DNA of 64,000 nt from Patescibacteria group bacterium (GCA_036726225.1 DAIMCS010000005.1:3808-67807); one strand, 5' to 3'; shown: positions 18,625 through 37,194, counted from the first letter of the stretch. Notes: generated from the sequence alone by a model not told the origin. Program-made: numbers and translations.

Positions 18625-18684
18625 AGTTGTAGTATACCACAACGGATGGTTTAAAACACAACTTTCAGCTATAATGGGATAAAT

Positions 18685-18891
18685 ATGAAAAGTGAAGCCC
18701 AAAAATTAGGCGATAATCTAAAACGAATAAGAACAGAGAAAGATATATCGCAGGGAGATATTGCACGAGCCTTAGAAGTGGATAAGAGTTTTGTCAGTAA
18801 TATAGAAAACGGCAAGACTAACCCGACACTTGCGACGATTGCAAAGATAGCAAAGGCAATCGGTGTTTCGGTTGATGAGTTATTAAAGTAA
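18685..18891 (+). CDS. XRE-family HTH transcriptional regulator
   Basis: Classic HTH_3: ISQGDIARALEVDKSFVSNIENG. Confidence 0.8.
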   Translation: MKSEAQKLGDNLKRIRTEKDISQGDIARALEVDKSFVSNIENGKTNPTLATIAKIAKAIGVSVDELLK

Positions 18892-18896
18892 AAATT

Positions 18897-20429
18897 ATGG
18901 CGACTTTAAATTGGATAGGAAAAGAAGCAGTAGTGAATCACGATAAAGAAGTGCCTTTTAAACTGCTCCAAAAAGTGCCGAGTGCTTCGGTGGGTAAGGA
19001 ATCAAAAAACCTTATCATTCACGGAGATAATCTTGAAGCTCTAAAGGCACTTATACCTTTTTATAAAAGTAAGGTGAAGTGCATTTATATTGATCCACCT
19101 TACAACACAGGCAACGAGGGTTGGGTATATAACGACAAAGTTAATTCTCCCAAAATCCAAGAATGGATTAAGAAGGTTGTTGGACGAGAGGGAGAAGATT
19201 TGACCCGCCACGATAAATGGATATGTATGATGTATCCAAGAATGAAGTTGCTACGCGACTTACTTGCAAACGATGGTGTAATTTTCGTAAGTATTGATGA
19301 CAACGAACAGCACTATCTAAGAATGGTTATGGACGAGATTTTTGGCGAAAAAAACTTTGTTGCTGACTTCATTTGGAATCACAGGAAATCAGGTCAAAAT
19401 GATATTGATGTATCTTTGTCTCATAATTATACGCTCTGTTATGCAAAAAAAAGAGCTGGACTCTTTTTGAATCGTCTCGCTATTGATGAAGGAAAGTTTT
19501 CTAATCCAGATAGCGATCCACGGGGCGATTGGGTTGCCGACCCTATGGACGCCCCCGCAATCCGAGAAAATTTAATGTATCCAATCATTAACCCAAATAC
19601 GAAACAAACATTTTTACCCCCTGTTGGGAGACATTGGCGATTTACTAAGGAAAAATACGAACAAGCGTTGAAGGATAATAGAATTGTTTTCGGGAAAACT
19701 GGCAAGTCCAAACCACAATTCAAACGCTTTAAAAGCGAAGCAGAGGAAAAAGGCATAAATGTTTTTACTATTTGGGACGATGTAGGAACTGCAACAGAAG
19801 GAACAAAAGAAATAATGGAGCTTTTTGGTGGAAAAAAAATCTTTGATACTCCTAAGCCAACTTCGTTTATTAAGAAAATTATTAAAATTGCTACGAAAGA
19901 TAATTCAATCGTATTGGATTCTTTTGCTGGTTCTGGGACAACTGGACACGCCGTTTTGGATTTAAATAAAGAAGATGGAATCAAACGCAGTTTTATTTTA
20001 GTAGAAATGGAAAATGATGTTGCTAAGAAAATTACCGCCGAGCGTATAAAGAGGGCTATCAAAAAGTATAAATATGATGACGGCTTTGAATATTGCGAAC
20101 TAGCCAAACCGCTTTTCAATGAGAAAGGGCAAATCAATGAGCAATGCACATATGGAGAACTTGCTACTTATATTTATTTTACCGAGACGCGAACAAATGC
20201 GGAAAAGAAGACTATCAAGTCGCCATTCATAGGAGAAAGTGGAGGCGTTTCTTACTACCTTATTTATGAAGGCAGAGATAAGAACGATCTCACTCGTTCA
20301 GCCCTTACGAAGTTGAAAATAAAGAAGCCAGCCGTAGTTTATGCGGATCGCTGTTTGGTGGACGAAGATGAGTTAAGAGAAAAAGGGATTGTATTCAAAC
20401 AAATCCCATACGAGATAAAAGTTTACTAA
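18897..20429 (+). CDS. Type III restriction-modification methyltransferase (Mod, N6-adenine, beta class)
   Basis: DPPYN motif IV precedes FAGSGTTG motif I (permuted order). The adjacent Res helicase-nuclease supports the call. Confidence 0.8.
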   Translation: MATLNWIGKEAVVNHDKEVPFKLLQKVPSASVGKESKNLIIHGDNLEALKALIPFYKSKVKCIYIDPPYNTGNEGWVYNDKVNSPKIQEWIKKVVGREGEDLTRHDKWICMMYPRMKLLRDLLANDGVIFVSIDDNEQHYLRMVMDEIFGEKNFVADFIWNHRKSGQNDIDVSLSHNYTLCYAKKRAGLFLNRLAIDEGKFSNPDSDPRGDWVADPMDAPAIRENLMYPIINPNTKQTFLPPVGRHWRFTKEKYEQALKDNRIVFGKTGKSKPQFKRFKSEAEEKGINVFTIWDDVGTATEGTKEIMELFGGKKIFDTPKPTSFIKKIIKIATKDNSIVLDSFAGSGTTGHAVLDLNKEDGIKRSFILVEMENDVAKKITAERIKRAIKKYKYDDGFEYCELAKPLFNEKGQINEQCTYGELATYIYFTETRTNAEKKTIKSPFIGESGGVSYYLIYEGRDKNDLTRSALTKLKIKKPAVVYADRCLVDEDELREKGIVFKQIPYEIKVY

Positions 20430-20430
20430 T

Positions 20431-22704
20431 ATGAAACTAAAACGCTACCAAGAAAACGCAATAGAAAAACTGGAAGAGTTTTTAGCGTTGCTCAAAAAGC
20501 AAAAGCCAAAACTTGCTTTCTATGAATTGACCGAAGAAAAATATAATGCCGAGTGGTTCGGTGATGTGCCTTTTGTTTGTATACGCATACCGACTGGTGG
20601 CGGAAAAACACTCGTCGGCTGTAAGTCAGTTGAACGGATAATGTCTATCGCATTACAGCACAAAATGGATACGGGTATTGTGATGTGGTTCGTGCCGTCC
20701 GATTCAATAAAGACGCAGACACTAAAAAAGTTTAGAGATTTGAAAGACTACCACTATGAAATGCTCAACGATTCTTTTGATACTAAGTTCAAAGTCTTTT
20801 CTAACGAGGAAGCACTTACCATTACGCCCGAAGATGTAAGAAATAATCTTTGTATTGTAGTCGCCAGTTTAGACGCTTTCCGTAAAGATCAGAAGATACA
20901 AAATAAATACAAGGTTTACAAAGAGAACGGGTCATTGATGGATCATTTCCAAAACCTTAAAGATGATTCGGCTCTTGAAAAAGATAAAGCGGGAACAGTC
21001 GTAAGTTCGTTAGCGAATGTCGTTCGTAAAAATAACCCACTCATTGTGATAGACGAAGGTCACCATACGCAAACAGAGCTATCAGTAGATATGCTTAAAG
21101 GACTTAGACCCTCTTTCATTATTGAGTTCACGGCTACGCCAAGAGACGGGAGCAATGTGCTTGTTCATACAAGTGCTTCGGAATTGAAAATTGAGGAGAT
21201 GGTAAAGATTCCTATTGTGCTTGAAAGTCGGACACAATGGGAACAGGTAGTCGCTGACGGAATAGCAAAGCGTGAGGAGCTTGAAAAACGAGCTAAGAAA
21301 CTTAAAGGCGAGTACATCCGCCCAATAGTTTTGCTTCAAGCCCAACCGAAAAGCAAAGTTAAAGCGACAATAACGATAGAGCAACTCAAACAGATGTTGC
21401 TTGATAAAAAAATTCCTGAAGAACAAATAAAAATAAAGACTTCGGAAGCTGATGAATTAGAAGGAATTGATTTGTTCTCTAAGAAATGTGAGGTGCGATA
21501 TATTCTCACAGTAAACGCACTTGCAGAAGGTTGGGACTGCTCCTTCGCTTATGTGCTTATTTCTGTTGCGAACTTAGGAGCAAGAATAGCAGTAGAGCAG
21601 ATTATCGGACGTGTTATCAGAATGCCTAACGCTCGCCGCAAAGAAGACGAAGCAATGAATCGCAGTTATGTATTTGCTTCTTCAGTAGATTTTAACGAGG
21701 CGGCGGACAAGGTTATCAAGGGACTTGTGGATAACGGATACAGCAAGAACGACCTTATTAGTGTTGCTGACGAGAAAGACTACTCCGATCCGTTAGAAGC
21801 GAAGAAGGCAATCAAAAAAGATTTGAAAGTGCCGATGATGACGCTCGGCAAAGACAAACTTTCCTTTGAAGACCTCTTGGGTGAGGACTTCAAATTAGCA
21901 AAACAGGACGCAGACTTTGATTTTAAAATCCATTATGACTTTGACGGGCAAGCAACGATAGATATTACGGAAGATGATGAGTGGCTACAAGGCAAACAGT
22001 TGAGCTTGCCGTATCAGTATCTTGAAGGCAATCACTCCGTTGAGGAATTAGCGTCTTGGCTTGATAAGAAGCTCCGCTTCCCAATGCTCAACCCCGACGA
22101 CAAAGCCGTCTTTATTGAAAGGGCTGTTCAAACGCAGATAAAGAAAAAGCGTAAACTCGCTGAATTATCGGTGAATAGATATTTACTCGCCGATCGCCTA
22201 AGTGTGGTGATAAATGAAATTCTTGAATTGTATACGAAAAAGATTTTTAACGGCTTGATGGCAAAAAAGAGCATTACTCTTGGTCTATTTGATTCGTATC
22301 CGACAACGATCACTCTCAAGTCGCCTGTGCCGAGGGTGTTTAATAAAAACCTATACGAGAGAATAGATGGTATCAACGGCGAGGAACGCGCGTTTGTAGA
22401 GCGTATTGACTTGGGGGCTTTGGATAATATTGAATACTGGGTGAGAAACCGAGAAAAAGTAGACCCGTTCTACATTCAAGGTTGGCGTAAAGGAAAGTTT
22501 TATCCCGACTTTGTGGCTATAACCAAGAAAGGCAACATCGTTGCCCTTGAATGGAAGGGAGAAGATCGCGTAAGCAACGAGGATACCGCCTACAAAGTAG
22601 AAATAGGAAATATTTGGGAAAAACTTGGTCGTGGTAAAACCTATTTCTTTCTCGTTCATAATGGGAATACCGAAGAAGTTTTAGGTAAACTGCGAAACCT
22701 ATAA
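20431..22704 (+). CDS. Type III restriction enzyme Res subunit (SF2 helicase + PD-(D/E)xK nuclease)
   Basis: Walker A PTGGGKT. DEGH box VIDEGHH. C-terminal YPDF...EWK nuclease motif. Start codon overlaps the mod stop. Confidence 0.8.
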   Translation: MKLKRYQENAIEKLEEFLALLKKQKPKLAFYELTEEKYNAEWFGDVPFVCIRIPTGGGKTLVGCKSVERIMSIALQHKMDTGIVMWFVPSDSIKTQTLKKFRDLKDYHYEMLNDSFDTKFKVFSNEEALTITPEDVRNNLCIVVASLDAFRKDQKIQNKYKVYKENGSLMDHFQNLKDDSALEKDKAGTVVSSLANVVRKNNPLIVIDEGHHTQTELSVDMLKGLRPSFIIEFTATPRDGSNVLVHTSASELKIEEMVKIPIVLESRTQWEQVVADGIAKREELEKRAKKLKGEYIRPIVLLQAQPKSKVKATITIEQLKQMLLDKKIPEEQIKIKTSEADELEGIDLFSKKCEVRYILTVNALAEGWDCSFAYVLISVANLGARIAVEQIIGRVIRMPNARRKEDEAMNRSYVFASSVDFNEAADKVIKGLVDNGYSKNDLISVADEKDYSDPLEAKKAIKKDLKVPMMTLGKDKLSFEDLLGEDFKLAKQDADFDFKIHYDFDGQATIDITEDDEWLQGKQLSLPYQYLEGNHSVEELASWLDKKLRFPMLNPDDKAVFIERAVQTQIKKKRKLAELSVNRYLLADRLSVVINEILELYTKKIFNGLMAKKSITLGLFDSYPTTITLKSPVPRVFNKNLYERIDGINGEERAFVERIDLGALDNIEYWVRNREKVDPFYIQGWRKGKFYPDFVAITKKGNIVALEWKGEDRVSNEDTAYKVEIGNIWEKLGRGKTYFFLVHNGNTEEVLGKLRNL

Positions 22705-22710
22705 AAAGAT

Positions 22711-24558
22711 ATGAGACTACTCAATTTTAGAATTAAAAATTATAAGTCCATCACCGATTCAAAAGATGTATTCCTCTCCGAGTTGGATAACATTACTATC
22801 CTCGCGGGACAAAATGAATCTGGTAAAAGTTCTATTTTACGGGCTTTGAATGATTTTGAAAGCGGAGAATTTGAAAAAGATTCAGTTCCTTTTTCACTTG
22901 AAAACGAAACTCAACAATCCGTGAGTTGCACTTACCGGATTGAGGATCAAGACAACCTAATTGAGCTTTTGACCGATTCAGTCATTGAAGATTTTTCTCT
23001 TAAATTACAGGAGGGTGAACAGATTTTGGATAAAGAGAAAATTGCGAGAATAAAAAACTTTACCCTAAGCCGCATAAGTGAAAAAGACGCTGTTCGTCTT
23101 GAGTTAGATGACGCAACTTTCAATATTTTTAAATCCGCCGTTCTTGAAAAACCGGCAATACCAAATCCAACTGCCGAGCAAGAACAGGGTGATGTTGTGA
23201 AAGAAAAGTATATCGCTGTTTCTGAAGATATGAATAGTAAAGTTGCCGAAATATTTTGGGCAAATTGCCCAAAGGTTGTTTACTTTGATGATTTTTGTGA
23301 CTTACTACCGGACAAGATTTTTATTTCAGCTCTAAAAAATAAGCAAAAAGATACACAGGGATATAAAGCCGTGAGGAACTTAGAGAATATTCTCAAAACG
23401 GATTTTGTATCAAAGGACGGAGAAGTTGATTCCCGACGAAGAACCAAAGAGACGCGAGAAAACGATACTCTTTCAATTGATTTCCAAAATGATTGGGGTC
23501 AAAGGATACACGGAGAGAACAAGGTTATCGTCAAGTATAATTTTGAGAAGCGTGTCGGTGATAATGAAAATGGTTCTTATGTTAATTTCTTTGTAGAAAC
23601 GAAGGAGGGGCAACCTCTACCACCTAAGCAAAGGAGTAAAGGATTGATTTGGTTTCTATCTCTTTGGCTTGAACTCAAAGCACAAAATGCTTCCGGTAAT
23701 GATTTAATTCTTCTATTAGATGAGCCAGATCAACATTTACATGTTAAAGCTCAAAAAGATATTTTAAAACTTATAAATAAACTTGCGACAACTACCGAAG
23801 TTGAAGAATCAGAAGCAGAGCGACGCGGCGATCAAATAATCTACGCTACTCATTCGCCCTACCTCATTGAGATAGAGCGTTTAAATCGCGTAAAGTTGAT
23901 AATCAATTCAGAAAAGCAAGGAACTCAAGTTGAAGATATTGCGACAAGCAAGATAAATACCGAGTTCAAAAAAGACGCCCTACAACCTATTGTGGACGCA
24001 ATAGGGTTAAGTGTTAATGAGTTTTCTTCGTTAGACAAAAACAATATTATTCTTGAGGGGATTTCGGATTTTTATTATTTCTCTGCTTTTAAGAAGCTCT
24101 TACAACGCACCGAAGAGTATAAGTTTATTCCGGGAATCGGCGTTAGGCAGATAAATAATCTAATATCTCTTGCTATCGGCTACGATCTCAACTGGTTGGT
24201 TATCATTGATGATGATCCAACTATTGGCGGGAAAGATTCAAAGAAGAAATATGACGAGATAAAAGACCATGTTTTTGATGGTGATTCAGCAAAAACGGAC
24301 AAGAAGGTAAATATTTTGAGCGGAATCGTTGGAGTAGAAAACATGTTTACGATTGACGACTTAAAATTAGTTGATTCAAAGGTTAATACTAATACCGATA
24401 TGGTTAAGGTTGTGGGGAAAAGGAGAAAAGTCTTGTTTGCTCAAATGTTTTATGAAAAAGTCTTGAGTGGAGAGATTACAAAGGATAAGCTATCACAATC
24501 TTCCATCAATAACTTTACCCAAGCCTTTGATTTTATTGACAGAGGTATGACCATCTAA
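22711..24558 (+). CDS. OLD-family ABC-ATPase/Toprim nuclease (class 1 OLD or fused PARIS-like AriAB)
   Basis: GQNESGKSS Walker A. LLLDEPDQHLH Walker B/D-loop. C-terminal Toprim with EGISD and IIDDD motifs. No adjacent helicase. Confidence 0.7.
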   Translation: MRLLNFRIKNYKSITDSKDVFLSELDNITILAGQNESGKSSILRALNDFESGEFEKDSVPFSLENETQQSVSCTYRIEDQDNLIELLTDSVIEDFSLKLQEGEQILDKEKIARIKNFTLSRISEKDAVRLELDDATFNIFKSAVLEKPAIPNPTAEQEQGDVVKEKYIAVSEDMNSKVAEIFWANCPKVVYFDDFCDLLPDKIFISALKNKQKDTQGYKAVRNLENILKTDFVSKDGEVDSRRRTKETRENDTLSIDFQNDWGQRIHGENKVIVKYNFEKRVGDNENGSYVNFFVETKEGQPLPPKQRSKGLIWFLSLWLELKAQNASGNDLILLLDEPDQHLHVKAQKDILKLINKLATTTEVEESEAERRGDQIIYATHSPYLIEIERLNRVKLIINSEKQGTQVEDIATSKINTEFKKDALQPIVDAIGLSVNEFSSLDKNNIILEGISDFYYFSAFKKLLQRTEEYKFIPGIGVRQINNLISLAIGYDLNWLVIIDDDPTIGGKDSKKKYDEIKDHVFDGDSAKTDKKVNILSGIVGVENMFTIDDLKLVDSKVNTNTDMVKVVGKRRKVLFAQMFYEKVLSGEITKDKLSQSSINNFTQAFDFIDRGMTI

Positions 24559-24563
24559 GGGAG

Positions 24564-24597
24564 TTTGCCGATCTTCCAAGACGGCAAAAGTTTTTAA
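24564..24597 (+). terminator. Putative terminator of the XRE-mod-res-OLD operon
   Basis: ttgccg...cggcaa hairpin followed by aagttttta. Confidence 0.35.
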
Positions 24598-24640
24598 CAC
24601 GCGCACGGGTAGGGTGGGGCAAGTGTTATGTCTTGCGTGA

Positions 24641-24805
24641 CGACCTCCCCTCCAAAAAATCCTCCCTCCAAAAATCTTCGGCTTTGTATTCTTGAATCTG
24701 TATTTTGCGAAATAAAAAAGTTGAAGAATCCCCCGTAAAACAATGGGCGACGCTCTGCGTCGCACGAAAAAATTTCTCTAAAACTAACCTAAGTTTTGTC
24801 TTGGC
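24641..24805. repeat. IR-A' (internal inverted copy of the left end)
   Basis: Reverse complement of 17162-17317. Shares the 5-bp GCCAA core with IR-B. Confidence 0.8.
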
Positions 24806-25091
24806 TCGTCTTTATAGTACCGCTCGAACGATTTTCATGGAAGATTTGGGCTAGTTTACCTAGTCACGCGGGTAGTCACTCGCTCCTTGCCCGAATGACT
24901 AGGGAGTATTGCTGAAAGCCCTAGTGAACACGGGGTCTTTCATCAATACCATCTCACAAAAAAGCAGTCCTACTTCACTCCGCTCCTCCTAGCGTCCGTC
25001 GCTCCGTGAAAATGTCACGGGTTCGTGTCTGGTGGCTCGGCCTTTGCTTCCGTCCTGCTAATTCTTTTTGCTCGTTGGTGGGGGGGGGTAA
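24801..25091. repeat. IR-B (internal inverted copy of the right end, 291 bp)
   Basis: Perfect reverse-complement match to 31010-31299, except G9 versus C8 in the homopolymer tract. Confidence 0.85.
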
Positions 25092-25146
25092 ATCGTGATT
25101 GAAAAATAAAATAAAAAATCGTTCAAGGCCGCTAGGCCGAGCGAAT

Positions 25147-26478
25147 TTATTTTTCAAACCAATTTTTTAGTTTTTCTTCTACAATATCGCGTGGAGTAGC
25201 GTAGCGTTCCCGCGATATTTTTAAAATAGTTTCTCGGTCTGCTTCGTATCCCGATGTTTTGAGCGGGGGCATAGTGATCGCCGAGAAAGCGTGAGACATT
25301 TTTCCGTCTATAAGAAGACGGAGAGCAATATGGTGGTTATCTAAATGCTCCAAGTCTTCGCTCGTAAATACTGGCTTCATTTCTTCCGCTAATTCCTTAG
25401 CGTCGTAATTCCCAACGCGGAAAGAAAGTATACTGCCTACATTGCCAAAAACAGCGTGTTTTATGGCCTCCGGTAGCTGATAGAGGTATTGGTGGGCTAT
25501 GTTTAAATTAAGGCGGTATTTACGAGCTTCGGAGAGGATAGACGGGAAAATGTCGGTGGAGAAGTTTTGAAACTCATCTATGTAGAGGTAAAAGTCTTTG
25601 CGTTGTTCTTCGGGTAGATTCTGACGTTCCAAAGCGGAGAGATACATTTTAGTAATAATGGCCGACCCTAAAAGGTTGGATTTATCCTCGCCGACTTTCC
25701 CTTTGGATAAATTGGCCAAGAGGATTCTTTTGTTGTCCATAACAAAACCGAAGTCCACCGAGCTTTTGGGTTGGCCGACAATATTCCGCATTTGAGGAGA
25801 AGTGAGAAGTTGTCCGACTTTGTTTTGAACTGGCGAGATTATTTCTTTACGAAAACGCTCGTCATAGTTTTCGTAATCATCTACCCAAAACATTTTTACA
25901 ATCGGGTCTTTGATATTCCCGACAATGAGTTTTCTGAACTCATTGTCCACGAGCATACGATACACGCCGAGTAAAGTTTGTCCGGGCGTATCCATCAAAG
26001 CCAAGACGCAGTTGTATAAAATGTGTTCAAGACGCGGACCCCAAAAATCTTTCCACAAGTGCCTGAAAACGGAAATCAGAGACGAGGCGACGAGATGTTT
26101 TTCATCATCACCTTTCGCTTCCAGAATATTGATAGCGACGGGGAAAGATGTGTCCGCAGGATTGAAATAGACAACTTCGTTCGTGCGAGTTTTCGGTATG
26201 TAGTTTAATAAATCTTCAACCAAGTCGCCGTGAGGATCAATCAAAGCAACGCCGTGATTCAAGCGTAAGTCTTGAATCACCATATTTTTAAGGAGCGTTG
26301 ATTTGCCCGTTCCTGTTTTACCGATAATGTAGATATGATTCCGGCGATCTTGCGTCTTTATGCCGAACGCGCGACGCTGTTCCCTGAATGTCGTTTCGCC
26401 GAGAGATTCTATTTCGTCTAAATGATATTCGTCCAAAGGCGTAAAAACTGTTTCCCGAAGTTTTCCTTCCAAAGACAA
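25147..26478 (-). CDS. Soluble TraD/VirD4/TrwB-like P-loop ATPase (type IV coupling-protein-like, FtsK-HerA superfamily), no TM anchor
   Basis: IIGKTGTGKST Walker A. ALIDPHGD. FYLYIDEFQNF Walker B. LNIAHQ. Paralog of 27204-28712. Confidence 0.55.
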   Translation of the reverse strand: MSLEGKLRETVFTPLDEYHLDEIESLGETTFREQRRAFGIKTQDRRNHIYIIGKTGTGKSTLLKNMVIQDLRLNHGVALIDPHGDLVEDLLNYIPKTRTNEVVYFNPADTSFPVAINILEAKGDDEKHLVASSLISVFRHLWKDFWGPRLEHILYNCVLALMDTPGQTLLGVYRMLVDNEFRKLIVGNIKDPIVKMFWVDDYENYDERFRKEIISPVQNKVGQLLTSPQMRNIVGQPKSSVDFGFVMDNKRILLANLSKGKVGEDKSNLLGSAIITKMYLSALERQNLPEEQRKDFYLYIDEFQNFSTDIFPSILSEARKYRLNLNIAHQYLYQLPEAIKHAVFGNVGSILSFRVGNYDAKELAEEMKPVFTSEDLEHLDNHHIALRLLIDGKMSHAFSAITMPPLKTSGYEADRETILKISRERYATPRDIVEEKLKNWFEK

Positions 26479-26703
26479 AGGAGCGATTACTCGCTCCTTG
26501 TCGTGTGCCTATATGTTTTCGTTATGTTCATTCCGTCTTTAACCAATCGGGGAACGATTGCCTAAAGTTCGGGATTAGCTCGTATTCCCCAAGCTGTCCC
26601 GCCCGCAACATCTTTTTAGCAAGAGAAGCGAGGGTAATGAAACTTAATGAAGTTTATACAACAAATGCCGTAAATAAGTCAAGGTAATGGTAAAATAACA
26701 CAA

Positions 26704-27207
26704 ATGGATTATAAAATTGATGTTGAAAATTTCACTCTACCAAACGGACAGACAGTTGAGGTTTCCAAACGCATTTATTCTTTCCAAAAGTGGAGAGGAG
26801 ATGAAATAAAAAACGACTACGGCGGTAAGGCGGTATTAGACAATGAAGGTAGTCCGCTTTTCGCTGAACTTGTAATACTACGGCTTTTGGAAAAAGAAGG
26901 TTGGTCTGGTATTTGGGTTGATACTTACGGCAAAAAGTTTAGGATGGGTTTACCAGAGAAATCTGATCCTATTTCGTTGCCTCCCGAGAAGCAAAGTTTA
27001 TTAGATAATATTTCAAAACAGGCGGGCGGATTTAAGGGTTGCTGGGATGTTTTTGCTTGGAAGGACAACGAATATCTTTTTGCCGAATCTAAGCGTATCG
27101 GCAAAGATTCAATACGCGATACTCAAATCAATTGGCTCTTTACCGCTCTCCAAGTGGGTATTCCTATCAAATCGTTTTTGCTCGTAGAGTGGAATATACA
27201 GAATTAA
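26704..27207 (+). CDS. Hypothetical small protein with a possible PD-(D/E)xK nuclease motif
   Basis: CWDVFAW...FAESKR fits D-x(n)-E-x-K. Sits between the two paralogous ATPase genes on the opposite strand. Confidence 0.3.
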   Translation: MDYKIDVENFTLPNGQTVEVSKRIYSFQKWRGDEIKNDYGGKAVLDNEGSPLFAELVILRLLEKEGWSGIWVDTYGKKFRMGLPEKSDPISLPPEKQSLLDNISKQAGGFKGCWDVFAWKDNEYLFAESKRIGKDSIRDTQINWLFTALQVGIPIKSFLLVEWNIQN

Positions 27208-28712
27208 AGTTTTCTTTTCGGCTCTCTAAAACTCTTTGGTTCGTCTAATTTCATTAACTCCTCTCGTCGTGCTTGATATTCTTCCTCAATTTCTTTGCGT
27301 TCCCGCAGATAGTTTTTTCCTATCTCACTTGAAGCTACCGCCGCAACGAATTCTTTTTCGTCCATTTCTGCAAATTCGTGAGGCGGAGGGAGATCGAGCG
27401 TTCGGACGGCGATAACTCCACCATCATTTTTATTTTTAATAACACATGACCGCCGTGGGAGTTCCTGAAGCCCTTGTATGTATGCTTCCCATCCCGGCGG
27501 GTCGTTGTAAATTGAGGCGAGAGATTCTTTAGCTAAAATATTAGAATCGTCCCGTGAGATTCTAAAATACGCTTGAAGTTCGCAGTTGGTAAGAATAGAG
27601 GCTCTCAAAGTTGTGGGAAGTTGAGCGAGATTTTGATGTGCCAGCAAAAGAGCGAGCTGATACTTGCGGGCTTCTGCGAGCATATCTTTAAAACTATCCG
27701 TTGCAAAGTTTTGAAACTCGTCTATGTAGAGATAAAACTTTCGGCGTTGAGGCTCTGGTGTATCTGTTCGGGAGAACGCCGCCGCCTGTATTTTCGCAAT
27801 AAGTAATGAGCCTAAAAGATCAGCACTCCCTTTTAGTCTGCCTTTATCCAGTTTAACGAGCAAGATTTTACCATCGTCCATAATTTCACGCAGATTGAAA
27901 GAACTTTTAGGCGAGGAAAGCATTTGTCCAACCTTGCCGTTAAACAAAAAGGCGTTCACTTTATTCAGAGTGGATTCTGCCCACTCGTCCTGTGTCCTGC
28001 GGGGTAAGCTATTAAATCTCTGAAAATATTCTCGGCAAACGCCGTGTTCAACTTTCTCTAAAATCTTGTTGCGTACTTCAAGGTCGGTAAGAAATAGAGG
28101 CAGTTCCGCAAGCGTAAGGTTATTTTGAATAAGAGCGACTAAAGTATTTTTTAGCAAAGCCTCCATTCTTGCACCCCAAGCGTCAATCCAAATTTTCTCA
28201 AATGCCCCTGTGAGTTCCAAGGCAATAGAATCAGCGTCTTCTCCCTTAGTGATTTCTAGCGGATTGAAAGTCACAATCCGTTCCGTGTTAGTTAGGTCAA
28301 CAAGAACGACACGCTCTTGGAGAAATTCGGGGTTATCTTTATTGAGAGCATACAAATATCCTTTTATGTCTTCCGTTAGGTCGCCGTGAGGATCAATAAC
28401 GCCAAACCCTAAACCATTTTCTATATCCTGCTTTACGAGCGATTCCAAAAATTTAGTTTTGCCGCTTCCCGAAGCACCAATAACATAAAAGTGAGTAGCT
28501 CGTGCCTCTTGCGACACGCCTTTCAGTTGGTATACCTCTTTGCCCTCGTCTATATTCTCAAACGAGGCGATACCCAAAGCCAACTCGTTAGGTGCGGGTT
28601 TTCTCATACGCACCTCTGGCACGAGTTCACGCTCGGAAAAGAGCGGGGCTTTGGGCTTTTTCGTGGTAAGCCAACGCCACAAAATTTTGAGGCGATCTTT
28701 TAACATATACAA
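27204..28712 (-). CDS. Soluble TraD/VirD4-like P-loop ATPase, paralog 2, with a charged C-terminal tail
   Basis: IGASGSGKTKF Walker A. VIDPHGD. FYLYIDEFQNF. LLAHQ. Collinear with 25147-26478. Confidence 0.55.
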   Translation of the reverse strand: MYMLKDRLKILWRWLTTKKPKAPLFSERELVPEVRMRKPAPNELALGIASFENIDEGKEVYQLKGVSQEARATHFYVIGASGSGKTKFLESLVKQDIENGLGFGVIDPHGDLTEDIKGYLYALNKDNPEFLQERVVLVDLTNTERIVTFNPLEITKGEDADSIALELTGAFEKIWIDAWGARMEALLKNTLVALIQNNLTLAELPLFLTDLEVRNKILEKVEHGVCREYFQRFNSLPRRTQDEWAESTLNKVNAFLFNGKVGQMLSSPKSSFNLREIMDDGKILLVKLDKGRLKGSADLLGSLLIAKIQAAAFSRTDTPEPQRRKFYLYIDEFQNFATDSFKDMLAEARKYQLALLLAHQNLAQLPTTLRASILTNCELQAYFRISRDDSNILAKESLASIYNDPPGWEAYIQGLQELPRRSCVIKNKNDGGVIAVRTLDLPPPHEFAEMDEKEFVAAVASSEIGKNYLRERKEIEEEYQARREELMKLDEPKSFREPKRKL

Positions 28713-28720
28713 AAATGGCT

Positions 28721-29239
28721 TTATGAAATGTTCAAAAAGCCGTGCGTGTGGGTATCAACTTTAGTGAAATCAAGATTCAATTCCTTTAGCGATTCGTTCA
28801 CGGCACTTTTCAACGATTCGTGGACGATTGTGACAAAAGCCGACAATTCCTCGGTCTTGAAAATATCAAGCTCCATTATATTACTTCCACCAATCGCTCT
28901 TGCGAGGTGCGGTAGTTCTTTCTCGTCCACGACGAGATACCATGAGACCAGTAATTGCTTGCCATAGTCTCTTGCTCCCGCATAGATAATCCAACCTAAC
29001 ATTGCTTCGTTTTTGATCTCAATCATCTCCCGCATTTGGCTACCGCCACCGCCACGAAATAAGCCCTTTACGGCCGCTCCCAATCCCGTGCTGATATTTT
29101 TCTTTTCTGCCACAATGCCGGGGATACCCGCCGCTTGAACATTGGACATAAAAGCCCGTAAGATTTTCTCGCTCTGCCCATTCGCTCCACCGATTGAAGC
29201 AAACCAACGCTCGGTAATGTTTTGATTTTTTAGGGACAT
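28721..29239 (-). CDS. Hypothetical protein
   Basis: ORF in an operon with the ATPase and the DHFR-like gene. No motif recognised. Confidence 0.35.
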   Translation of the reverse strand: MSLKNQNITERWFASIGGANGQSEKILRAFMSNVQAAGIPGIVAEKKNISTGLGAAVKGLFRGGGGSQMREMIEIKNEAMLGWIIYAGARDYGKQLLVSWYLVVDEKELPHLARAIGGSNIMELDIFKTEELSAFVTIVHESLKSAVNESLKELNLDFTKVDTHTHGFLNIS

Positions 29240-29360
29240 ATAAGATTTTGTTAAACAACTGCTTAATTAAGGCCGAACGACTAGACGGCCAAGAAACATT
29301 ATCTACATTTTAGCACTATTTTAAGTTTTTCTTTGGCGGCAAATTCTTTGCTCTTCAAAC

Positions 29361-29975
29361 CTATTTCACTAAAGATTCAGTCTTGAGCGGTCCGGTCGGT
29401 TCGTAGGTTGCAAATATTATGCCCGTAGGTAGAATTTTTGCGTATACCTGTTTGAAGCGTTCCGGTTGTGTGCCATCAGCGAATAATTTTTTGCCGGTGC
29501 CGATAGTAACGGGAAATGTCCAGATATGCATTCGATCTATGAGGTTGTTTTTAAGAAGCGTTTGTATAAGGTTGCTGCTACCGTACATCAACAGGTCAGG
29601 ACCATTTGATTTTTTAAGCTTTTTTATTTCTGCCACTACGTCTCCCGTAATAAGCTCGGAATTGCTCCAAGAGGGTTTAAAAGGTTTATGTGACACAACA
29701 TACTTTTTCGCGCGATCGAACTTCTTTCCCCACCGCGGCTCTGTTTTGTGTTTCGGCCAGTAACCGGCAAAAATATCATAGGTGAGTCTTCCCAAGAGCA
29801 GATCAAAAAGAGCATCCTGTATTTTTGTGTCGAATATATTGTCCCCTTCTTCGCCCCCATAACCGCCCTGCCAACCTCCGTATTTGAACCCTTCAGCTGT
29901 ATCTTCCTTCGAGCCACCGGGAGCTTGCATAACCCCGTCAAGGGTAATCATTGTGGTTGTGATAATTTTTCTCAT
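29361..29975 (-). CDS. Dihydrofolate reductase-like protein (RibD C-terminal domain family)
   Basis: MRKI...TLDGVMQAPGG start, a central GxxxL...VSHK region and a C-terminal YAKILPTGIIFATYEP pattern typical of RibD_C/DHFR-like proteins. Confidence 0.6.
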   Translation of the reverse strand: MRKIITTTMITLDGVMQAPGGSKEDTAEGFKYGGWQGGYGGEEGDNIFDTKIQDALFDLLLGRLTYDIFAGYWPKHKTEPRWGKKFDRAKKYVVSHKPFKPSWSNSELITGDVVAEIKKLKKSNGPDLLMYGSSNLIQTLLKNNLIDRMHIWTFPVTIGTGKKLFADGTQPERFKQVYAKILPTGIIFATYEPTGPLKTESLVK

Positions 29976-30066
29976 AATGTTTTATGGTTAATGTTAAATT
30001 ATTTCAAAAGTTCTTCCATTGGAACGCCTAACGCTTTGTGGCAAATTCTTAAATCTATTTTACCAC

Positions 30067-30930
30067 TTATTCCAAAATCGTGTGAGGCGTGTCGTCTTTA
30101 GGTGACTTCCAAATTGCCTCTAAAATCTTTTTGGCTGTTGTTAGGGTATATTCCGTTTCGGGAGCGAATAAAAACAATCTGCTTCCCGTACCTGCATTGT
30201 CGCCGCTCTTTCCAGCGTTCCGTAAACTCTCACTCCGTCCTTTGGACGGGGTGAGAGTGAGGACGCGGAAACGAGAAAGGCGGAGTTTCTCTTTTAATCT
30301 GTTGTCGCTCCACCACGACCAGTAAATCTTCAATTTATTTACAAACCTCTCGGTCGTCATTGTGCCTCTGTCGGCTTCAAGAAAATAGTTTATTTCCCCT
30401 CCTTCGTGAAGGATTGTAAAAAATGCGTCGGGAACGAGTGAGGGATTTTCGCCGCTCGCTTTTCGCAAAAGTTCTTTCAAGTCGTGTCCTTGAAACCAAC
30501 GGAGAATTTTTATCCCGCTCTCTTCGGTGGCGAGCGTAAGACAAATTCTAAATTGAGAAATCATTAAGGAATGGGCAATCAAGGGGAGTGTTCTTTCATT
30601 TTCCCGCAGACGGCGATAAATCCCTGCACGCTCGGTAGCGTCTTTTGAGAGTAGTTCCGCACCTTTGCGTCCAAGGGTGTAAACCATGTGCAACGAGGAA
30701 AGTTTGGCGGAGGTTTGGCTTTTCGGCCGATCAAGGTAGCCGTGCTGAAAGAGAGAAGCGAGCCGTCGGAGTAGATTCCTCTCTCCGCCTTGGTGCAAAG
30801 CCAAAATCTGGGGAGTGTTCATAAAGCGAAACTCTCCCACCGAGCGTAAGAGTTCAATGTCACGGGGCTGGAGCTGGAGGGGGTCGGCGACCTCGCTACG
30901 GACAAATTTTTTATGTATAAGGTTAGACAT
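30067..30930 (-). CDS. Replication-relaxation family protein (HTH N-terminus), putative mobilization/replication initiator
   Basis: N-terminal LQPRDIELLRSVGEFRFMNTPQILALH is Replic_Relax-like. This family commonly neighbours TraD/VirD4-like ATPases. A TATAAT box lies in 30931-30960. Confidence 0.5.
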   Translation of the reverse strand: MSNLIHKKFVRSEVADPLQLQPRDIELLRSVGEFRFMNTPQILALHQGGERNLLRRLASLFQHGYLDRPKSQTSAKLSSLHMVYTLGRKGAELLSKDATERAGIYRRLRENERTLPLIAHSLMISQFRICLTLATEESGIKILRWFQGHDLKELLRKASGENPSLVPDAFFTILHEGGEINYFLEADRGTMTTERFVNKLKIYWSWWSDNRLKEKLRLSRFRVLTLTPSKGRSESLRNAGKSGDNAGTGSRLFLFAPETEYTLTTAKKILEAIWKSPKDDTPHTILE

Positions 30931-31009
30931 AGAGGAATACCCTAATTATACGCCTACCGACCCCCTCAAACGAGGCCTTCTGCTTCCGTCCTATCCTTTT
31001 TTCTTCGTC

Positions 31010-31299
31010 TTACCCCCCCCACCAACGAGCAAAAAGAATTAGCAGGACGGAAGCAAAGGCCGAGCCACCAGACACGAACCCGTGACATTTTCACGGAGCG
31101 ACGGACGCTAGGAGGAGCGGAGTGAAGTAGGACTGCTTTTTTGTGAGATGGTATTGATGAAAGACCCCGTGTTCACTAGGGCTTTCAGCAATACTCCCTA
31201 GTCATTCGGGCAAGGAGCGAGTGACTACCCGCGTGACTAGGTAAACTAGCCCAAATCTTCCATGAAAATCGTTCGAGCGGTACTATAAAGACGAGCCAA
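31010..31299. repeat. IR-B' (right terminal repeat of the element)
   Basis: Reverse complement of 24801-25091. Ends at the GCCAA core abutting attR. Confidence 0.85.
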
Positions 31300-31341
31300 C
31301 AAAAAACTCATCCACGTTAGGCGGATGAGTTTTTTGTTTTG
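31300..31341 (+). terminator. Displaced intrinsic terminator of tRNA-Gln (right half of the ancestral attB)
   Basis: ctcatcc-acgttaggc-ggatgag hairpin followed by ttttttgtttt, immediately after attR. Confidence 0.55.
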
Positions 31342-36813: not shown

Positions 36814-37194
36814 TTAGGTGTTAGCAGACAAAATATTTCTTACAATTGCAACAATACTAAAGGAAAGCAGCGCAAAAACCAGGCCTAAAACCGCCCACTG
36901 AATGGTTTTTTTGGCTTTAATCAACCGTTCTTCATTCCCGGCCGAAGAAATCATTTGGAAAGCGCCGACTAAAATAAACAAAACCGAAACTATGGGTATA
37001 ATTTGTAAAATGTCCCGGATAATTAAAATAAAAAATTCCGCTAAATCGCAAGCCCTGCTCAAACAAACCAGCTGGTTTTCGGGCAGCGGATTATATAATT
37101 TTTCGTAAGTTTCGCTGAAATCCGCTGCCCTGCCAAGCAATGGGGCTAAAAGCAAAAAAATAAAAAAATAGACCTTGTTTAAAATTTTACGCAT
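36814..37194 (-). CDS. Small secreted two-helix membrane protein (VirB2/TrbC pilin-like architecture), hypothetical
   Basis: Signal peptide, then two hydrophobic helices separated by a short charged loop. About 126 aa. Confidence 0.3.
   Translation of the reverse strand: MRKILNKVYFFIFLLLAPLLGRAADFSETYEKLYNPLPENQLVCLSRACDLAEFFILIIRDILQIIPIVSVLFILVGAFQMISSAGNEERLIKAKKTIQWAVLGLVFALLSFSIVAIVRNILSANT

What the first reader, a model, noticed from the sequence alone, without database searches (positions are those of the whole stretch)
25147..30930. Mobilization-like (or novel defence?) arm: two paralogous TM-less VirD4/TraD-like ATPases, a small PD-(D/E)xK protein, a DHFR-like protein and a Replic_Relax-like HTH protein
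Both ATPases share Walker A, DPHGD, FYLYIDEFQNF and AHQ blocks but lack the N-terminal membrane anchor of genuine type IV coupling proteins. No relaxase of a known MOB family and no VirB4/VirB genes are present. A duplicated soluble coupling-protein-like ATPase pair with a tiny nuclease-like gene wedged between them, on an element also carrying RM and OLD, could be a minimal dsDNA-transfer or replication module, or an uncharacterised ATPase-based defence system. A pilin-like two-helix protein (36814-37194) exists elsewhere in the window.
Basis: inference. Interest (0 to 1): 0.7.

Follow-up and report, generated by a model that had tools for sequence, protein, structure and literature searches.

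The report
Mobilization backbone of a CPR integrative element
The region is the conserved DNA-processing core (a relaxase-type nuclease, a small adaptor and two soluble coupling-protein-like ATPases) of a 14-kb element integrated in a tRNA-Gln gene of a candidate-phyla-radiation bacterium; it is not a defence system, and it is framed by an unusual, conserved pair of 300-bp inverted repeats.

Summary
All six ORFs exist as described. The two ATPases are true paralogs (35% identity over 335 aa, E 1e-65), have no TM segment, and match coupling-protein families best, though weakly.

1. Replic_Relax (PF13814) is the Pfam family of MOBC relaxases (TraX of pAD1). The model is a winged HTH plus a PD-(D/E)xK nuclease.
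2. The arm lies in a 14.1-kb island (17161-31299) in the 3' end of tRNA-Gln. The island also holds a large serine recombinase (LSR), type III RM and OLD.
3. The arm is bounded exactly by 296-nt, 99% inverted repeats (24792-25087 / 31013-31308). These are two inverted copies of the element's attP-side region.

The unit RR - p172 - ATPase B - [variable cargo] - ATPase A, framed by these repeats, recurs in many independent CPR assemblies. It sits beside LSRs, tRNA genes and changing defence cargo, in both inversion isomers. The VRR-NUC-like and RibD_C genes are cargo. Longer p172 homologs carry a TM helix, which suggests a split coupling protein. ATPase A is 56% identical to a chromosomal CPR gene that follows SecDF.

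Best reading: the mobilization module of an integrative mobilizable element, a new variant of a known kind. The role of the repeats is unexplained.

The parts
17091..17165 (+). tRNA-Gln(ttg); integration target (left half of attB)
   Evidence: ARAGORN and Rfam. The element starts at its 3' end.
17161..17166 (+). attL common core AGCCAA
   Evidence: The same 6-mer sits at the break in similarity at all three sites.
17074..18702 (-). Large serine recombinase (integrase). The ORF crosses the att core near codon 513 and reads on antisense through the tRNA.
   Evidence: Resolvase + Recombinase + Zn_ribbon_recom. The C-terminal tail differs between the attL and attP configurations.
17161..17319 (+). 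P' arm (3' end of the LSR gene); inverted repeat of 24639-24806
   Evidence: I2 is 105 nt at 100%, I3 is 36 nt at 100%.
18897..24558 (+). Defence cargo: type III mod (18897-20429), res (20431-22704), OLD/AriA-like ATPase-nuclease (22711-24558)
   Evidence: Pfam and PADLOC.
24639..25087 (-). Internal, inverted, intact attP-like site. It holds a P' copy (24639-24806), the core TTGGCT (24801-24806) and a P copy (24792-25087). This is the left inverted repeat of the arm.
25147..26478 (-). ATPase A: soluble VirD4/TrwB-like P-loop ATPase
   Evidence: It is 56% identical to a chromosomal CPR paralog.
26704..27207 (+). p167: VRR-NUC-like PD-(D/E)xK nuclease; variable cargo
   Evidence: 900 representatives found; 9 of 26 homologs hit VRR_NUC. 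A homolog sits at the same position in L119. Absent from L001 and L004.
27204..28712 (-). ATPase B: soluble VirD4/TrwB-like P-loop ATPase
28721..29239 (-). p172: conserved partner directly upstream of ATPase B. Here it lacks the TM helix that the longer homologs carry.
29361..29975 (-). RibD_C (DHFR-fold reductase-like); cargo of this element and its exact-RR relatives (RR-RibD_C adjacency also in L132)
   Evidence: No homolog in the loci scanned with phmmer; present next to the identical RR in L132.
30067..30930 (-). RR: Replic_Relax (MOBC-type) winged HTH + PD-(D/E)xK nuclease; putative relaxase
31013..31308 (+). P region, the right inverted repeat of the arm. It contains the C8-ACCAACGAGCAAAAAGAA block (31013-31038), a hairpin (31080-31096), an invariant GGAGCGGAGTGAAGT (31114-31128), a covarying triple site (31196-31204, 31222-31230, 31234-31241) and the attR core AGCCAA (31294-31299). 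Candidate RR-binding/oriT region.
31298..31338 (+). Terminator-like hairpin; right half of attB (B')
   Evidence: I19; sequence.

Best explanation
The arm is the mobilization (DNA-processing and coupling) backbone of an integrative mobilizable element (IME) that is widespread in Patescibacteria/CPR.

Shown:
- A 14.1-kb island lies between the 3' end of tRNA-Gln and that gene's terminator. A short common core (AGCCAA) sits at both junctions.
- A large serine recombinase gene spans the left junction.
- The unit [P repeat - RR - p172 - ATPase B - variable cargo - ATPase A - inverted P repeat] recurs in many independent assemblies. It sits next to LSRs, tRNA genes and ever-changing defence cargo, in both relative orientations.
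- RR belongs to the Pfam family of MOBC relaxases and models as a winged HTH plus a restriction-endonuclease-like domain with invariant D168, E185, D187 and K199.
- The ATPases are closest to type IV coupling proteins.

Inferred mechanism:
1. The LSR excises the island as a circle.
2. RR binds the three covarying 8-9-nt sites in the conserved P region and nicks nearby, as TraX does at a distance from its bind site.
3. ATPase B, with p172 as its partner, and ATPase A act as a split, soluble coupling-protein pair. p172 is membrane-anchored in many sister elements.
4. The pair hands the DNA to a transport channel that the element does not encode. The likely channel is the chromosomal MPF-FATA-like T4SS common in CPR genomes.
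5. The LSR then integrates the DNA into a tRNA gene of the recipient.

p167 (VRR-NUC), RibD_C, type III RM and OLD are cargo. Why a full second copy of the attP-side region is kept in inverted orientation, framing the module, is not explained by this model.
For: Island and att logic.

Same two-repeat architecture elsewhere:
- L001/L002
- L004
- L090, L091 and L010
- L094, L107, L120 and L124

The C-run motif lies about 100 nt upstream of RR in 18 loci and about 60 nt downstream of ATPase A in 11 loci. It always points outward.

Inversion isomers: L001 versus L002, which carry the identical ATPase B, and the window versus L131.

tRNA genes abut the LSR end in the window, L131, L102 and L011.

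RR:
- PF13814 at 92.9 bits.
- PF13814 equals MobC by CONJscan, and streptococcal IME_Class_8 is serine integrase + MobC + VirD4 (PMC5357655).
- The TraX homolog of MOBC-typed pTEF1 hits PF13814 and sits next to a T4CP with the same Pfam trio.
- Invariant residues.
- TraX architecture and distant bind site (PMC12857230).

ATPases. The best PDB matches of the profile are TrwB and DotL. Homologs in plasmids include the T4CP inside a Tcp-type conjugation operon of a 65-kb B. subtilis plasmid.

ArdC-N cargo lies between the ATPases in L004.

p172 family: the long forms have an N-terminal TM helix.

The site variant in P tracks the RR recognition helix.

The field has reported 5,713 T4CP homologs in CPR genomes, mostly far from virB4, with MOBC the commonest relaxase class and 39 relaxases near t4cp (PMC12102498).
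Against: - No T4SS gene among the window ORFs scanned. Whether the genome has one cannot be seen from this window.
- Neither ATPase nor this p172 has a membrane anchor.
- Direct similarity of RR to a TraX homolog is not significant (hhalign E 0.31). Nuclease-fold matches are weak (best E 2.4e-3).
- All matches to curated T4CP equivalogs are far below their cut-offs.
- Minimal sister modules keep RR and the repeats but lack the ATPases (L091, L107). The ATPases are therefore not obligatory.
- In distant relatives a RuvC-like gene stands where RR does (L011, L012).
- ATPase A is 56% identical to a chromosomal gene in a housekeeping SecDF context. The family therefore has a non-element role in CPR.
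- No empty attB and no circular form were found.
Confidence: 0.55

Rival explanations
1. Replication/maintenance module of the excised circle. RR ('replication-relaxation') initiates replication at the P region. The ATPases act as DNA translocases or helicase-like motors for replication or segregation. The two inverted copies of the recombinase target make the circle a 2-micron-like flip-flop replicon.
For: - The family was named for roles in both plasmid replication and relaxation (PMC3424549).
- Two inverted repeats split the element into two unique arcs. The recombinase crossover lies at the repeat boundary, and both isomers exist in nature.
- Minimal modules keep RR plus the repeats without the ATPases.
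- 240 of 300 plasmids carrying similar ATPases are typed non-mobilizable.
Against: - No circular contig or plasmid-like copy was recovered; all resolved copies are chromosomal, next to tRNA genes.
- No primase, helicase or partition genes lie in the module.
- The ATPases are closest to coupling proteins, not to replicative helicases.
- Inversion between 300-bp repeats needs only RecA.
Confidence: 0.2
2. RR is an accessory factor of the serine recombinase: a directionality or inversion control factor, as XisH/XisI are for XisF. It binds the accessory sites in P. The ATPases are a separate passenger function.
For: - RR and the P repeats are the most constant pair, always tied to LSR att sites. 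They persist when the ATPases are absent.
- XisH-family structures are among the best fold matches of the nuclease domain (probability 0.97-0.99).
- The triple site lies about 55-100 nt from the crossover.
Against: - The fold match is generic PD-(D/E)xK (E 0.014-0.027).
- RR is a strong member of PF13814, whose characterised member is a relaxase.
- RR is co-oriented with, and in most elements immediately followed by, p172 and the coupling-protein-like ATPases.
Confidence: 0.1
3. An uncharacterised ATPase-based anti-phage or anti-plasmid defence system, consisting of the ATPase pair plus nucleases.
For: - PADLOC mad8 matches (E 4e-13 and 3.5e-15), with weaker HerA and DndH matches.
- Many ATPase B homologs carry a C-terminal AlbA_2/Schlafen domain.
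- A VRR-NUC nuclease lies between the ATPases, and its homologs are fused to HNH, SIR2, Mrr and GmrSD domains.
- The neighbours are RM and OLD.
Against: - The module is the invariant part, while the recognised defence genes vary.
- It is always tied to RR, the att-side repeats, an LSR and tRNA genes.
- No other MADS, Dnd or SIR2 partner is present in the arm.
- p167 is absent from most sister elements.
- The mad8 scores are no better than the T4CP scores.
Confidence: 0.07
4. A self-mobile transposon-like cassette. The 300-bp repeats are terminal inverted repeats, and RR is a PD-(D/E)xK (TnsA-like) transposase helped by ATPases.
For: - The inner ends of the repeats are fixed next to RR and ATPase A in all elements.
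- Each repeat carries the same triple binding site.
Against: - The outer ends of the repeats coincide with the LSR crossover core.
- The internal copy continues into a duplicate of the LSR 3' end, so it is an attP copy, not a transposon end.
- There is no target-site duplication: the core is inverted at the internal site.
- The module was not seen away from LSR/att contexts.
Confidence: 0.03

Closest known systems
Streptococcal IME_Class_8 (Coluzzi et al. 2017, PMC5357655)
   Same: Compact integrative mobilizable element with a serine integrase, a PF13814/MobC relaxase and a VirD4-type coupling protein, and no T4SS of its own.
   Different: - Here there are two paralogous coupling-protein-like ATPases, both without a TM domain, plus a dedicated small partner (p172).
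- The host is a CPR bacterium.
- The target is the 3' end of a tRNA gene.
- The module is framed by inverted copies of the attP-side region.
- Heavy defence cargo is present.
pAD1/pTEF1 TraX (MOBC relaxase) with its TraG-like coupling protein; CloDF13 MobC/MobB
   Same: - A winged HTH + PD-(D/E)xK nuclease of Pfam PF13814, encoded next to a coupling-protein gene.
- In pAD1 the relaxase binds repeats at a distance from nic (PMC12857230).
   Different: - Direct sequence similarity to the pTEF1 TraX homolog is not significant (hhalign E 0.31).
- The pTEF1 coupling protein is 737 aa with TM segments and lies in a full conjugation region.
- CloDF13 ORFs gave no Pfam hit, so no comparison was possible.
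Orphan VirD4-type T4CP homologs of Patescibacteria (PMC12102498, 2025)
   Same: These are almost certainly the same gene families. That study found thousands of T4CP homologs far from virB4, MOBC as the commonest relaxase class, and some relaxases next to t4cp.
   Different: The passages of that study read here do not mention the element, its paired ATPases, p172, the LSR/tRNA integration or the inverted repeats. They leave open that the t4cp may have been exapted for other functions.
Yeast 2-micron plasmid (FLP/FRT within 599-bp inverted repeats); invertible segments such as P1 C/Cin. From general knowledge, not tested here.
   Same: - Two long inverted repeats divide the element into two unique arcs.
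- A site-specific recombinase is encoded in one arc, with its crossover site inside or at the edge of the repeats.
- Both isomers are found.
   Different: - The recombinase here is a large serine integrase that also integrates into a tRNA gene.
- No autonomous replication has been shown.
- Inversion may simply be RecA-dependent.
XisF/XisH/XisI of the Anabaena fdxN element (from general knowledge plus the fold hits)
   Same: A large serine recombinase working alongside a PD-(D/E)xK-fold accessory protein.
   Different: RR is a much larger wHTH fusion belonging to PF13814. The fold similarity is generic.

Membership tests
Type IV coupling protein (VirD4/TraD/TrwB) | P-loop NTPase domain of the FtsK/HerA/TrwB type with Walker A and Walker B; Pfam T4CP families above gathering score | tested here: met
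   TrwB_AAD_bind 40.3 bits (A) and 41.2 bits (B) against a 20.5 cut-off. TraG-D_C 31.9 and T4SS-DNA_transf 25.7 for B. The best PDB sequence matches are TrwB and DotL.
Type IV coupling protein (VirD4/TraD/TrwB) | N-terminal transmembrane anchor | tested here: not met
   The highest KD19 mean is 0.96 (A) and 1.30 (B); 0 of 120 homologs exceed 1.6. The pTEF1 T4CP has 4 segments above 1.6. A TM helix is present instead on long p172 homologs in sister elements.
Type IV coupling protein (VirD4/TraD/TrwB) | Membership of a curated T4CP equivalog (NCBIfam) | tested here: not met
   conju_CD1115 scores 43 and 56 bits against a 250 cut-off. SXT_TraD scores 42 and 48 bits against 366.
Type IV coupling protein (VirD4/TraD/TrwB) | Genetic linkage to a relaxase | tested here: met
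   RR lies in the same gene string in the window and in sister elements.
Type IV coupling protein (VirD4/TraD/TrwB) | Works with a T4SS channel (VirB4 and others) | not testable with these tools
   None found among the window ORFs scanned. The rest of the genome is not available.
MOBC relaxase (TraX/MobC; Pfam PF13814) | PF13814 domain above gathering score | tested here: met
   92.9 bits against a 25.3 cut-off. The TraX homolog of MOBC-typed pTEF1 scores 28.5 bits.
MOBC relaxase (TraX/MobC; Pfam PF13814) | N-terminal winged HTH | tested here: met
MOBC relaxase (TraX/MobC; Pfam PF13814) | C-terminal PD-(D/E)xK nuclease fold with conserved acidic and lysine residues | tested here: inconclusive
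   The model has alpha-beta-beta-beta-alpha-beta topology. D168, E185, D187 and K199 are invariant in 24 sequences. The best Foldseek hits are restriction enzymes, nickases and XisH, but with E of 2.4e-3 or worse.
MOBC relaxase (TraX/MobC; Pfam PF13814) | Direct homology to a characterised member | tested here: inconclusive
   hhalign against the pTEF1 TraX homolog gives E 0.31, although the D and E motifs align.
MOBC relaxase (TraX/MobC; Pfam PF13814) | Site-specific nicking at an oriT; recognition by the MOBscan/CONJscan MOBC profile | not testable with these tools
   Requires biochemistry or MOBscan.
Integrative mobilizable element (IME) | Own integrase and att sites at the island borders | tested here: met
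   LSR. tRNA-Gln 3' end, AGCCAA core at 17161-17166 and 31294-31299, and a terminator as B'.
Integrative mobilizable element (IME) | Relaxase and/or oriT present, but no mating-pore genes | tested here: met
   Putative relaxase RR is present. No T4SS gene lies in the island.
Integrative mobilizable element (IME) | Demonstrated excision and mobilization | not testable with these tools
   The search for an empty site found nothing.
MADS / HerA-type defence ATPases | Presence of the other system genes (mad1-7; SIR2, NurA or Dnd partners) in the operon | tested here: not met
   Only mad8-like and weak HerA/DndH matches to the ATPases themselves. The other four arm proteins have no PADLOC hit.
FtsK/TraB/TcpA dsDNA translocases | FtsK_SpoIIIE domain above threshold | tested here: not met
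   17.5 and 18.4 bits against a 24 cut-off.

The most novel reading that the evidence does not exclude
The conserved, inverted second copy of the whole attP-side region, each copy carrying the three putative RR-binding sites, is functional. It would turn the excised element into a flip-flop circle, 2-micron-like. LSR- or RR-driven inversion would then amplify or switch the element. Alternatively, it would provide two opposed transfer origins.

Together with a soluble, split coupling-protein pair (p172 + ATPase B, and ATPase A) related to a chromosomal CPR ATPase encoded after SecDF, this would be a CPR-specific DNA donation system. It would not follow the canonical relaxase-T4CP-T4SS scheme. 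One possibility is a 'push' module feeding the recipient's competence machinery.
Probability: 0.15. Interest if true: 0.8.

Novelty: new variant of a known kind. Interest (0 to 1): 0.55.

Why it matters
CPR/Patescibacteria make up a large share of bacterial diversity, yet nothing is known experimentally about how their mobile elements move. A 2025 survey (PMC12102498) found thousands of VirD4-type genes in CPR genomes far from any virB4, and very few relaxases. It left open whether these bacteria conjugate at all.

This window shows two homes for those 'orphan' genes:
- An abundant, well-delimited family of tRNA-integrating elements. It has a MOBC-type nuclease, a conserved 300-bp cis region with candidate binding sites, and defence cargo.
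- A chromosomal operon that follows SecDF.

That gives concrete, testable parts for the first mobilization assays in CPR co-cultures:
- RR plus the P region for binding and nicking.
- The LSR plus tRNA att sites for integration.
- p172 with ATPase B for interaction.

It may also provide a compact LSR/att pair and a vehicle for genetic tools in these organisms. The inverted-att architecture is unusual for a serine-integrase element and has no explanation yet.

Tried and rejected
- CloDF13 (MOBC prototype): ORFs of the stored record gave no Pfam hit, so no comparison with MobC/MobB was possible.
- tblastn of RR against plasmids found only two weak hits.
- hhalign of the RR profile against the pTEF1 TraX homolog was not significant.
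- P region as a structured RNA: the RNAalifold consensus is weak (-13.7 kcal/mol), with covariation only in the triple-site hairpin. There was no Rfam match even at E of 1 or less. It was rejected as an ncRNA in favour of protein-binding sites.
- Promoter and terminator scans were at chance level.
- RR relatives in IMG/VR: none, so there is no sign of a phage.
- Empty attB 30-mer in metagenomes: none.
- Exact look-up of ATPase B: not on record. The RR look-up gave only short contigs, so the organism was not identified beyond CPR.
- MADS membership was rejected.
- Assembly artefact as the cause of the repeats was rejected. The same architecture occurs in assemblies from NCBI, ENA and JGI.

Full report
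**1.

The six ORFs are present at the stated coordinates:
- ATPase A, 25147-26478(-), 443 aa
- p167, 26704-27207(+)
- ATPase B, 27204-28712(-), 502 aa
- an unmentioned 172-aa gene (p172), 28721-29239(-)
- a RibD_C protein, 29361-29975(-)
- a Replic_Relax protein (RR), 30067-30930(-)

The two ATPases are genuine paralogs: 35% identity over 335 aa, E 1e-65. They share the Walker A, IDPHGDL, FYLYIDEFQNF and AHQ blocks.

Neither has a hydrophobic segment. The highest 19-residue Kyte-Doolittle mean is 0.96 (A) and 1.30 (B). None of 120 homologs exceeds 1.6, whereas the coupling protein of pTEF1 has four such segments.

Both pass the Pfam thresholds of TrwB_AAD_bind, and B also passes TraG-D_C and T4SS-DNA_transf. 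Their best NCBIfam matches are VirD4-like and TraD families, but far below the curated cut-offs. A profile of the family finds TrwB and DotL as the best solved relatives, though only weakly.

p167 has no Pfam hit itself, but 9 of 26 homologs hit VRR_NUC, so the PD-(D/E)xK label is reasonable.

None of the other window ORFs scanned encodes a VirB4 or other T4SS component; those scanned are housekeeping genes. 36814-37194 is a borderline T4SS_pilin match.

**2. The arm is part of an integrated element, and inverted repeats frame it exactly**

A repeat search and the junction sequences show three related sites:
- Site 1: tRNA-Gln (17091-17165) - AGCCAA - P'. P' (to 17319) is the 3' end of a large serine recombinase gene (17074-18702).
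- Site 3: P (31013-31308) - AGCCAA - a terminator-like hairpin.
- Site 2: between them, at 24639-25087, an intact P-AGCCAA-P' in inverted orientation.

Sites 1 and 3 thus read as attL and attR of a 14.1-kb island. Joining the outer flanks restores a tRNA followed by its terminator. Site 2 reads as an internal, inverted attP copy.

This divides the island into two arcs, each flanked by inverted repeats:
- the LSR + type III RM + OLD arc, with 105+36-nt repeats at 100%
- the finding's arm, with 296-nt repeats at 99%

The LSR reading frame crosses the core near codon 513. Its last 15-29 residues therefore differ between the integrated and excised configurations.

**3. The module and its frame recur widely**

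ATPase B has more than 6000 detectable relatives, and the sources that name an organism among the best hits give CPR lineages (Curtissbacteria, Levybacteria, Parcubacteria). RR has 637 cluster representatives of constant length.

In independent contigs the order is RR - p172-family gene - ATPase B - [nothing / small ORF / ArdC-N + S49 peptidase / p167-like] - ATPase A. Beside it lie an LSR and changing defence cargo, such as OLD-like ATPases, methylases, SIR2+HerA, type III RM, SinI RM and Mrr.

Long inverted repeats frame the module in these loci:
- L001, L002 and L004
- L090, L091 and L010

A 24-nt block at the inner edge of the repeat (C6-8ACCAACGAGCAAAAAGAA) retrieved 39 metagenome loci. 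In these:
- It lies about 100 nt upstream of RR in 18 loci.
- It lies about 60 nt downstream of ATPase A in 11 loci.
- It always points outward.
- All loci with two copies have them inverted.
- Many contigs end at the repeat, as expected for a repeated sequence.

L094 reproduces the window's integrated arrangement. L001 and L002 carry the identical ATPase B but have the two arcs in opposite relative orientation, and L131 is a relative of the window's element with the arm inverted. Both isomers therefore exist.

tRNA genes (Gly, Arg, Trp, Lys) abut the elements elsewhere.

Because the architecture appears in NCBI, ENA and JGI assemblies, it is not an assembly artefact.

**4. What the proteins are**

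RR:
- It is a strong member of PF13814.
- The literature assigns this family to the PD-(D/E)xK fold (PMC3424549).
- It equates the family with the MobC relaxase superfamily. It describes streptococcal IMEs with a serine integrase, a PF13814 relaxase and a VirD4 coupling protein (PMC5357655).
- The TraX homolog of the MOBC-typed plasmid pTEF1 hits PF13814 and lies next to a coupling protein with the same Pfam domains as the window ATPases.
- The AF2 model (pLDDT 85) shows a MarR-like winged HTH followed by an alpha-beta-beta-beta-alpha-beta domain. The best fold matches of that domain are restriction enzymes, nickases and XisH.
- D168, E185, D187 and K199 are invariant.
- Direct comparison with the pTEF1 protein is not significant. 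Membership therefore rests on the shared Pfam family and architecture.

p172:
- It is conserved, lies directly upstream of ATPase B, and has a generic alpha+beta fold.
- The longer homologs (211-237 aa) in sister elements start with a TM helix.
- This suggests that p172 and ATPase B form a split coupling protein. The window's version has lost or never had the anchor.

ATPase A:
- It is 56% identical to a gene found in 70 of 80 species-level genome loci.
- In those loci the commonest neighbours are SecD/SecF, a HARE-HTH/sigma-r4 protein (38 loci) and, directly upstream, a 454-aa membrane protein (42 loci).
- The family therefore also has a chromosomal, probably cellular, role in CPR.

Related soluble ATPases occur on plasmids of many phyla, including inside a Tcp-type conjugation operon of a B. 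subtilis plasmid. A Sulfitobacter locus has two of them with an RR.

**5. The conserved cis region**

Twenty-nine distinct P copies align well. They share invariant blocks and a triple site made of one inverted and two direct copies of an 8-9-mer. The 8-9-mer changes in concert between elements: TGACTAGG, TGAAGGGG, TGTAGGGG or TGATGGGG.

RNAalifold gives only a weak structure, and Rfam finds nothing. I therefore read these as protein-binding sites.

The site type tracks the predicted recognition helix of the adjacent RR in the three classes available. This is suggestive only, because shared ancestry could give the same pattern.

The sites lie about 55-100 nt from the crossover core. This recalls the distant bind site of TraX (PMC12857230).

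**6. Interpretation**

The best-supported reading is an integrative mobilizable element. Its backbone is the finding's arm, in which RR is a MOBC-type relaxase acting on P, and p172/ATPase B and ATPase A are a soluble, split coupling apparatus. The LSR handles excision and integration at tRNA genes. The channel would be supplied in trans, plausibly by the chromosomal T4SS common in CPR (PMC12102498).

Evidence that weakens this reading:
- There is no T4SS in view.
- There is no membrane anchor here.
- Similarity to characterised members is weak.
- Sister modules exist that lack the ATPases (L091, L107).
- RuvC-like genes stand in place of RR in distant relatives.
- ATPase A has a housekeeping paralog.

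Rivals are:
- a replication/maintenance module with a 2-micron-like flip architecture
- RR as an accessory factor of the serine recombinase
- a defence system
- a transposon-like cassette

The last two are poorly supported. The defence genes are the variable part, and only the ATPases themselves match mad8 or HerA models. The outer ends of the repeats are LSR crossover sites, not transposon ends.

**7. Novelty**

The gene families have been counted before as orphan T4CPs and MOBC relaxases in CPR (PMC12102498). The combination of serine integrase, MobC relaxase and VirD4 is known from streptococcal IMEs.

The following features were not mentioned in any of the papers I read or retrieved:
- the duplicated soluble ATPases
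- the p172 partner
- the tRNA-targeting LSR whose gene spans the att core
- the conserved inverted duplicate of the attP-side region

I rate it a new variant of a known kind, of moderate interest. The purpose of the inverted repeats is the open point.

Noticed in passing
L014-L088 (e.g. L045:9938-11701, L044:3100-4464, L069:11-1102, L014:1515-2456): A close paralog of ATPase A (56% identity; 500-650 aa; the one scanned, L045, has a C-terminal treble-clef zinc finger) was found in 70 of 80 species-level genome loci, mostly CPR. The commonest upstream neighbours are SecD/SecF, a HARE-HTH/sigma70-r4 protein (38 loci) and a 454-aa protein with N-terminal TM segments (42 loci). It may be a cellular split 'coupling protein' of unknown role.
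   Followed up: partly
window 17074-18702 and 24702-24860: The serine recombinase ORF crosses the att core near codon 513 and continues antisense through tRNA-Gln. The integrated form ends ...VLAGAPGIEPGNAGFKGPCLTAWLRPKNMTS. The attP configuration would end ...VLARLYSTARTIFMEDLG.
   Followed up: partly
window 31196-31241 and 24859-24904; alignment A6: Triple site (one inverted and two direct copies) that covaries between elements. The variant correlates with the predicted recognition helix of the adjacent RR (ERNLLRRL, RRNLMERL or DRNIGNRL).
   Followed up: partly
L011:8767-9279; L012:6320-7396: In more distant relatives (ATPase B about 48% identical), ORFs with an N-terminal I(L)AIDPGT motif, read by eye as RuvC/YqgF-like and not scanned against any family library, stand upstream of the p172-like gene and ATPase B. 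No RR is detected there. This may be a non-orthologous replacement of the nuclease.
   Followed up: no
L091:1-3615; L107:10369-13230: Minimal repeat-framed modules that keep RR but lack both ATPases. L091 has RR, an unrelated 236-aa ORF (weak Peptidase_M78 hit, no p172 match) and SinI RM. L107 has RR and a 437-aa coiled-coil protein. RR plus the P repeats is the most constant pair.
   Followed up: partly
L004:4235-5860: A 509-541-aa HINT/intein-like domain protein ends 9 nt before the element's repeat in the Parcubacteria contigs. No LSR lies within the 20 kb shown.
   Followed up: no
L079:9908-17027; L133 (NZ_CP081110.1): A Sulfitobacter (Alphaproteobacteria) locus carries two soluble T4CP-like ATPases with a Replic_Relax gene. 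A Sulfitobacter plasmid has an LSR-type recombinase 1.3 kb from such an ATPase. The association is therefore not limited to CPR.
   Followed up: partly
P0006-P0030 and other 660-aa homologs; L004:7909-9891: Many ATPase B homologs carry a C-terminal AlbA_2/Schlafen-type domain (PF04326). The window copy lacks it.
   Followed up: no
window 36814-37194: 126-aa protein with a borderline T4SS_pilin match (26.0 bits against 26.6). It lies between a SpoU methylase and a PCC-domain gene, outside the island.
   Followed up: partly
L001:11100-13610 versus L001:1-2100: The contig carries a second, 72-73% diverged OLD/AAA_15 arc beyond the second repeat. This suggests arrays of more than two arcs, or tandem elements.
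   Followed up: no
L093-L131: About a third of the contigs holding the C-run motif end within about 100 nt of it (roughly 14 of 39 loci). Elements of this family are therefore probably under-assembled and under-counted in metagenome bins.
   Followed up: no
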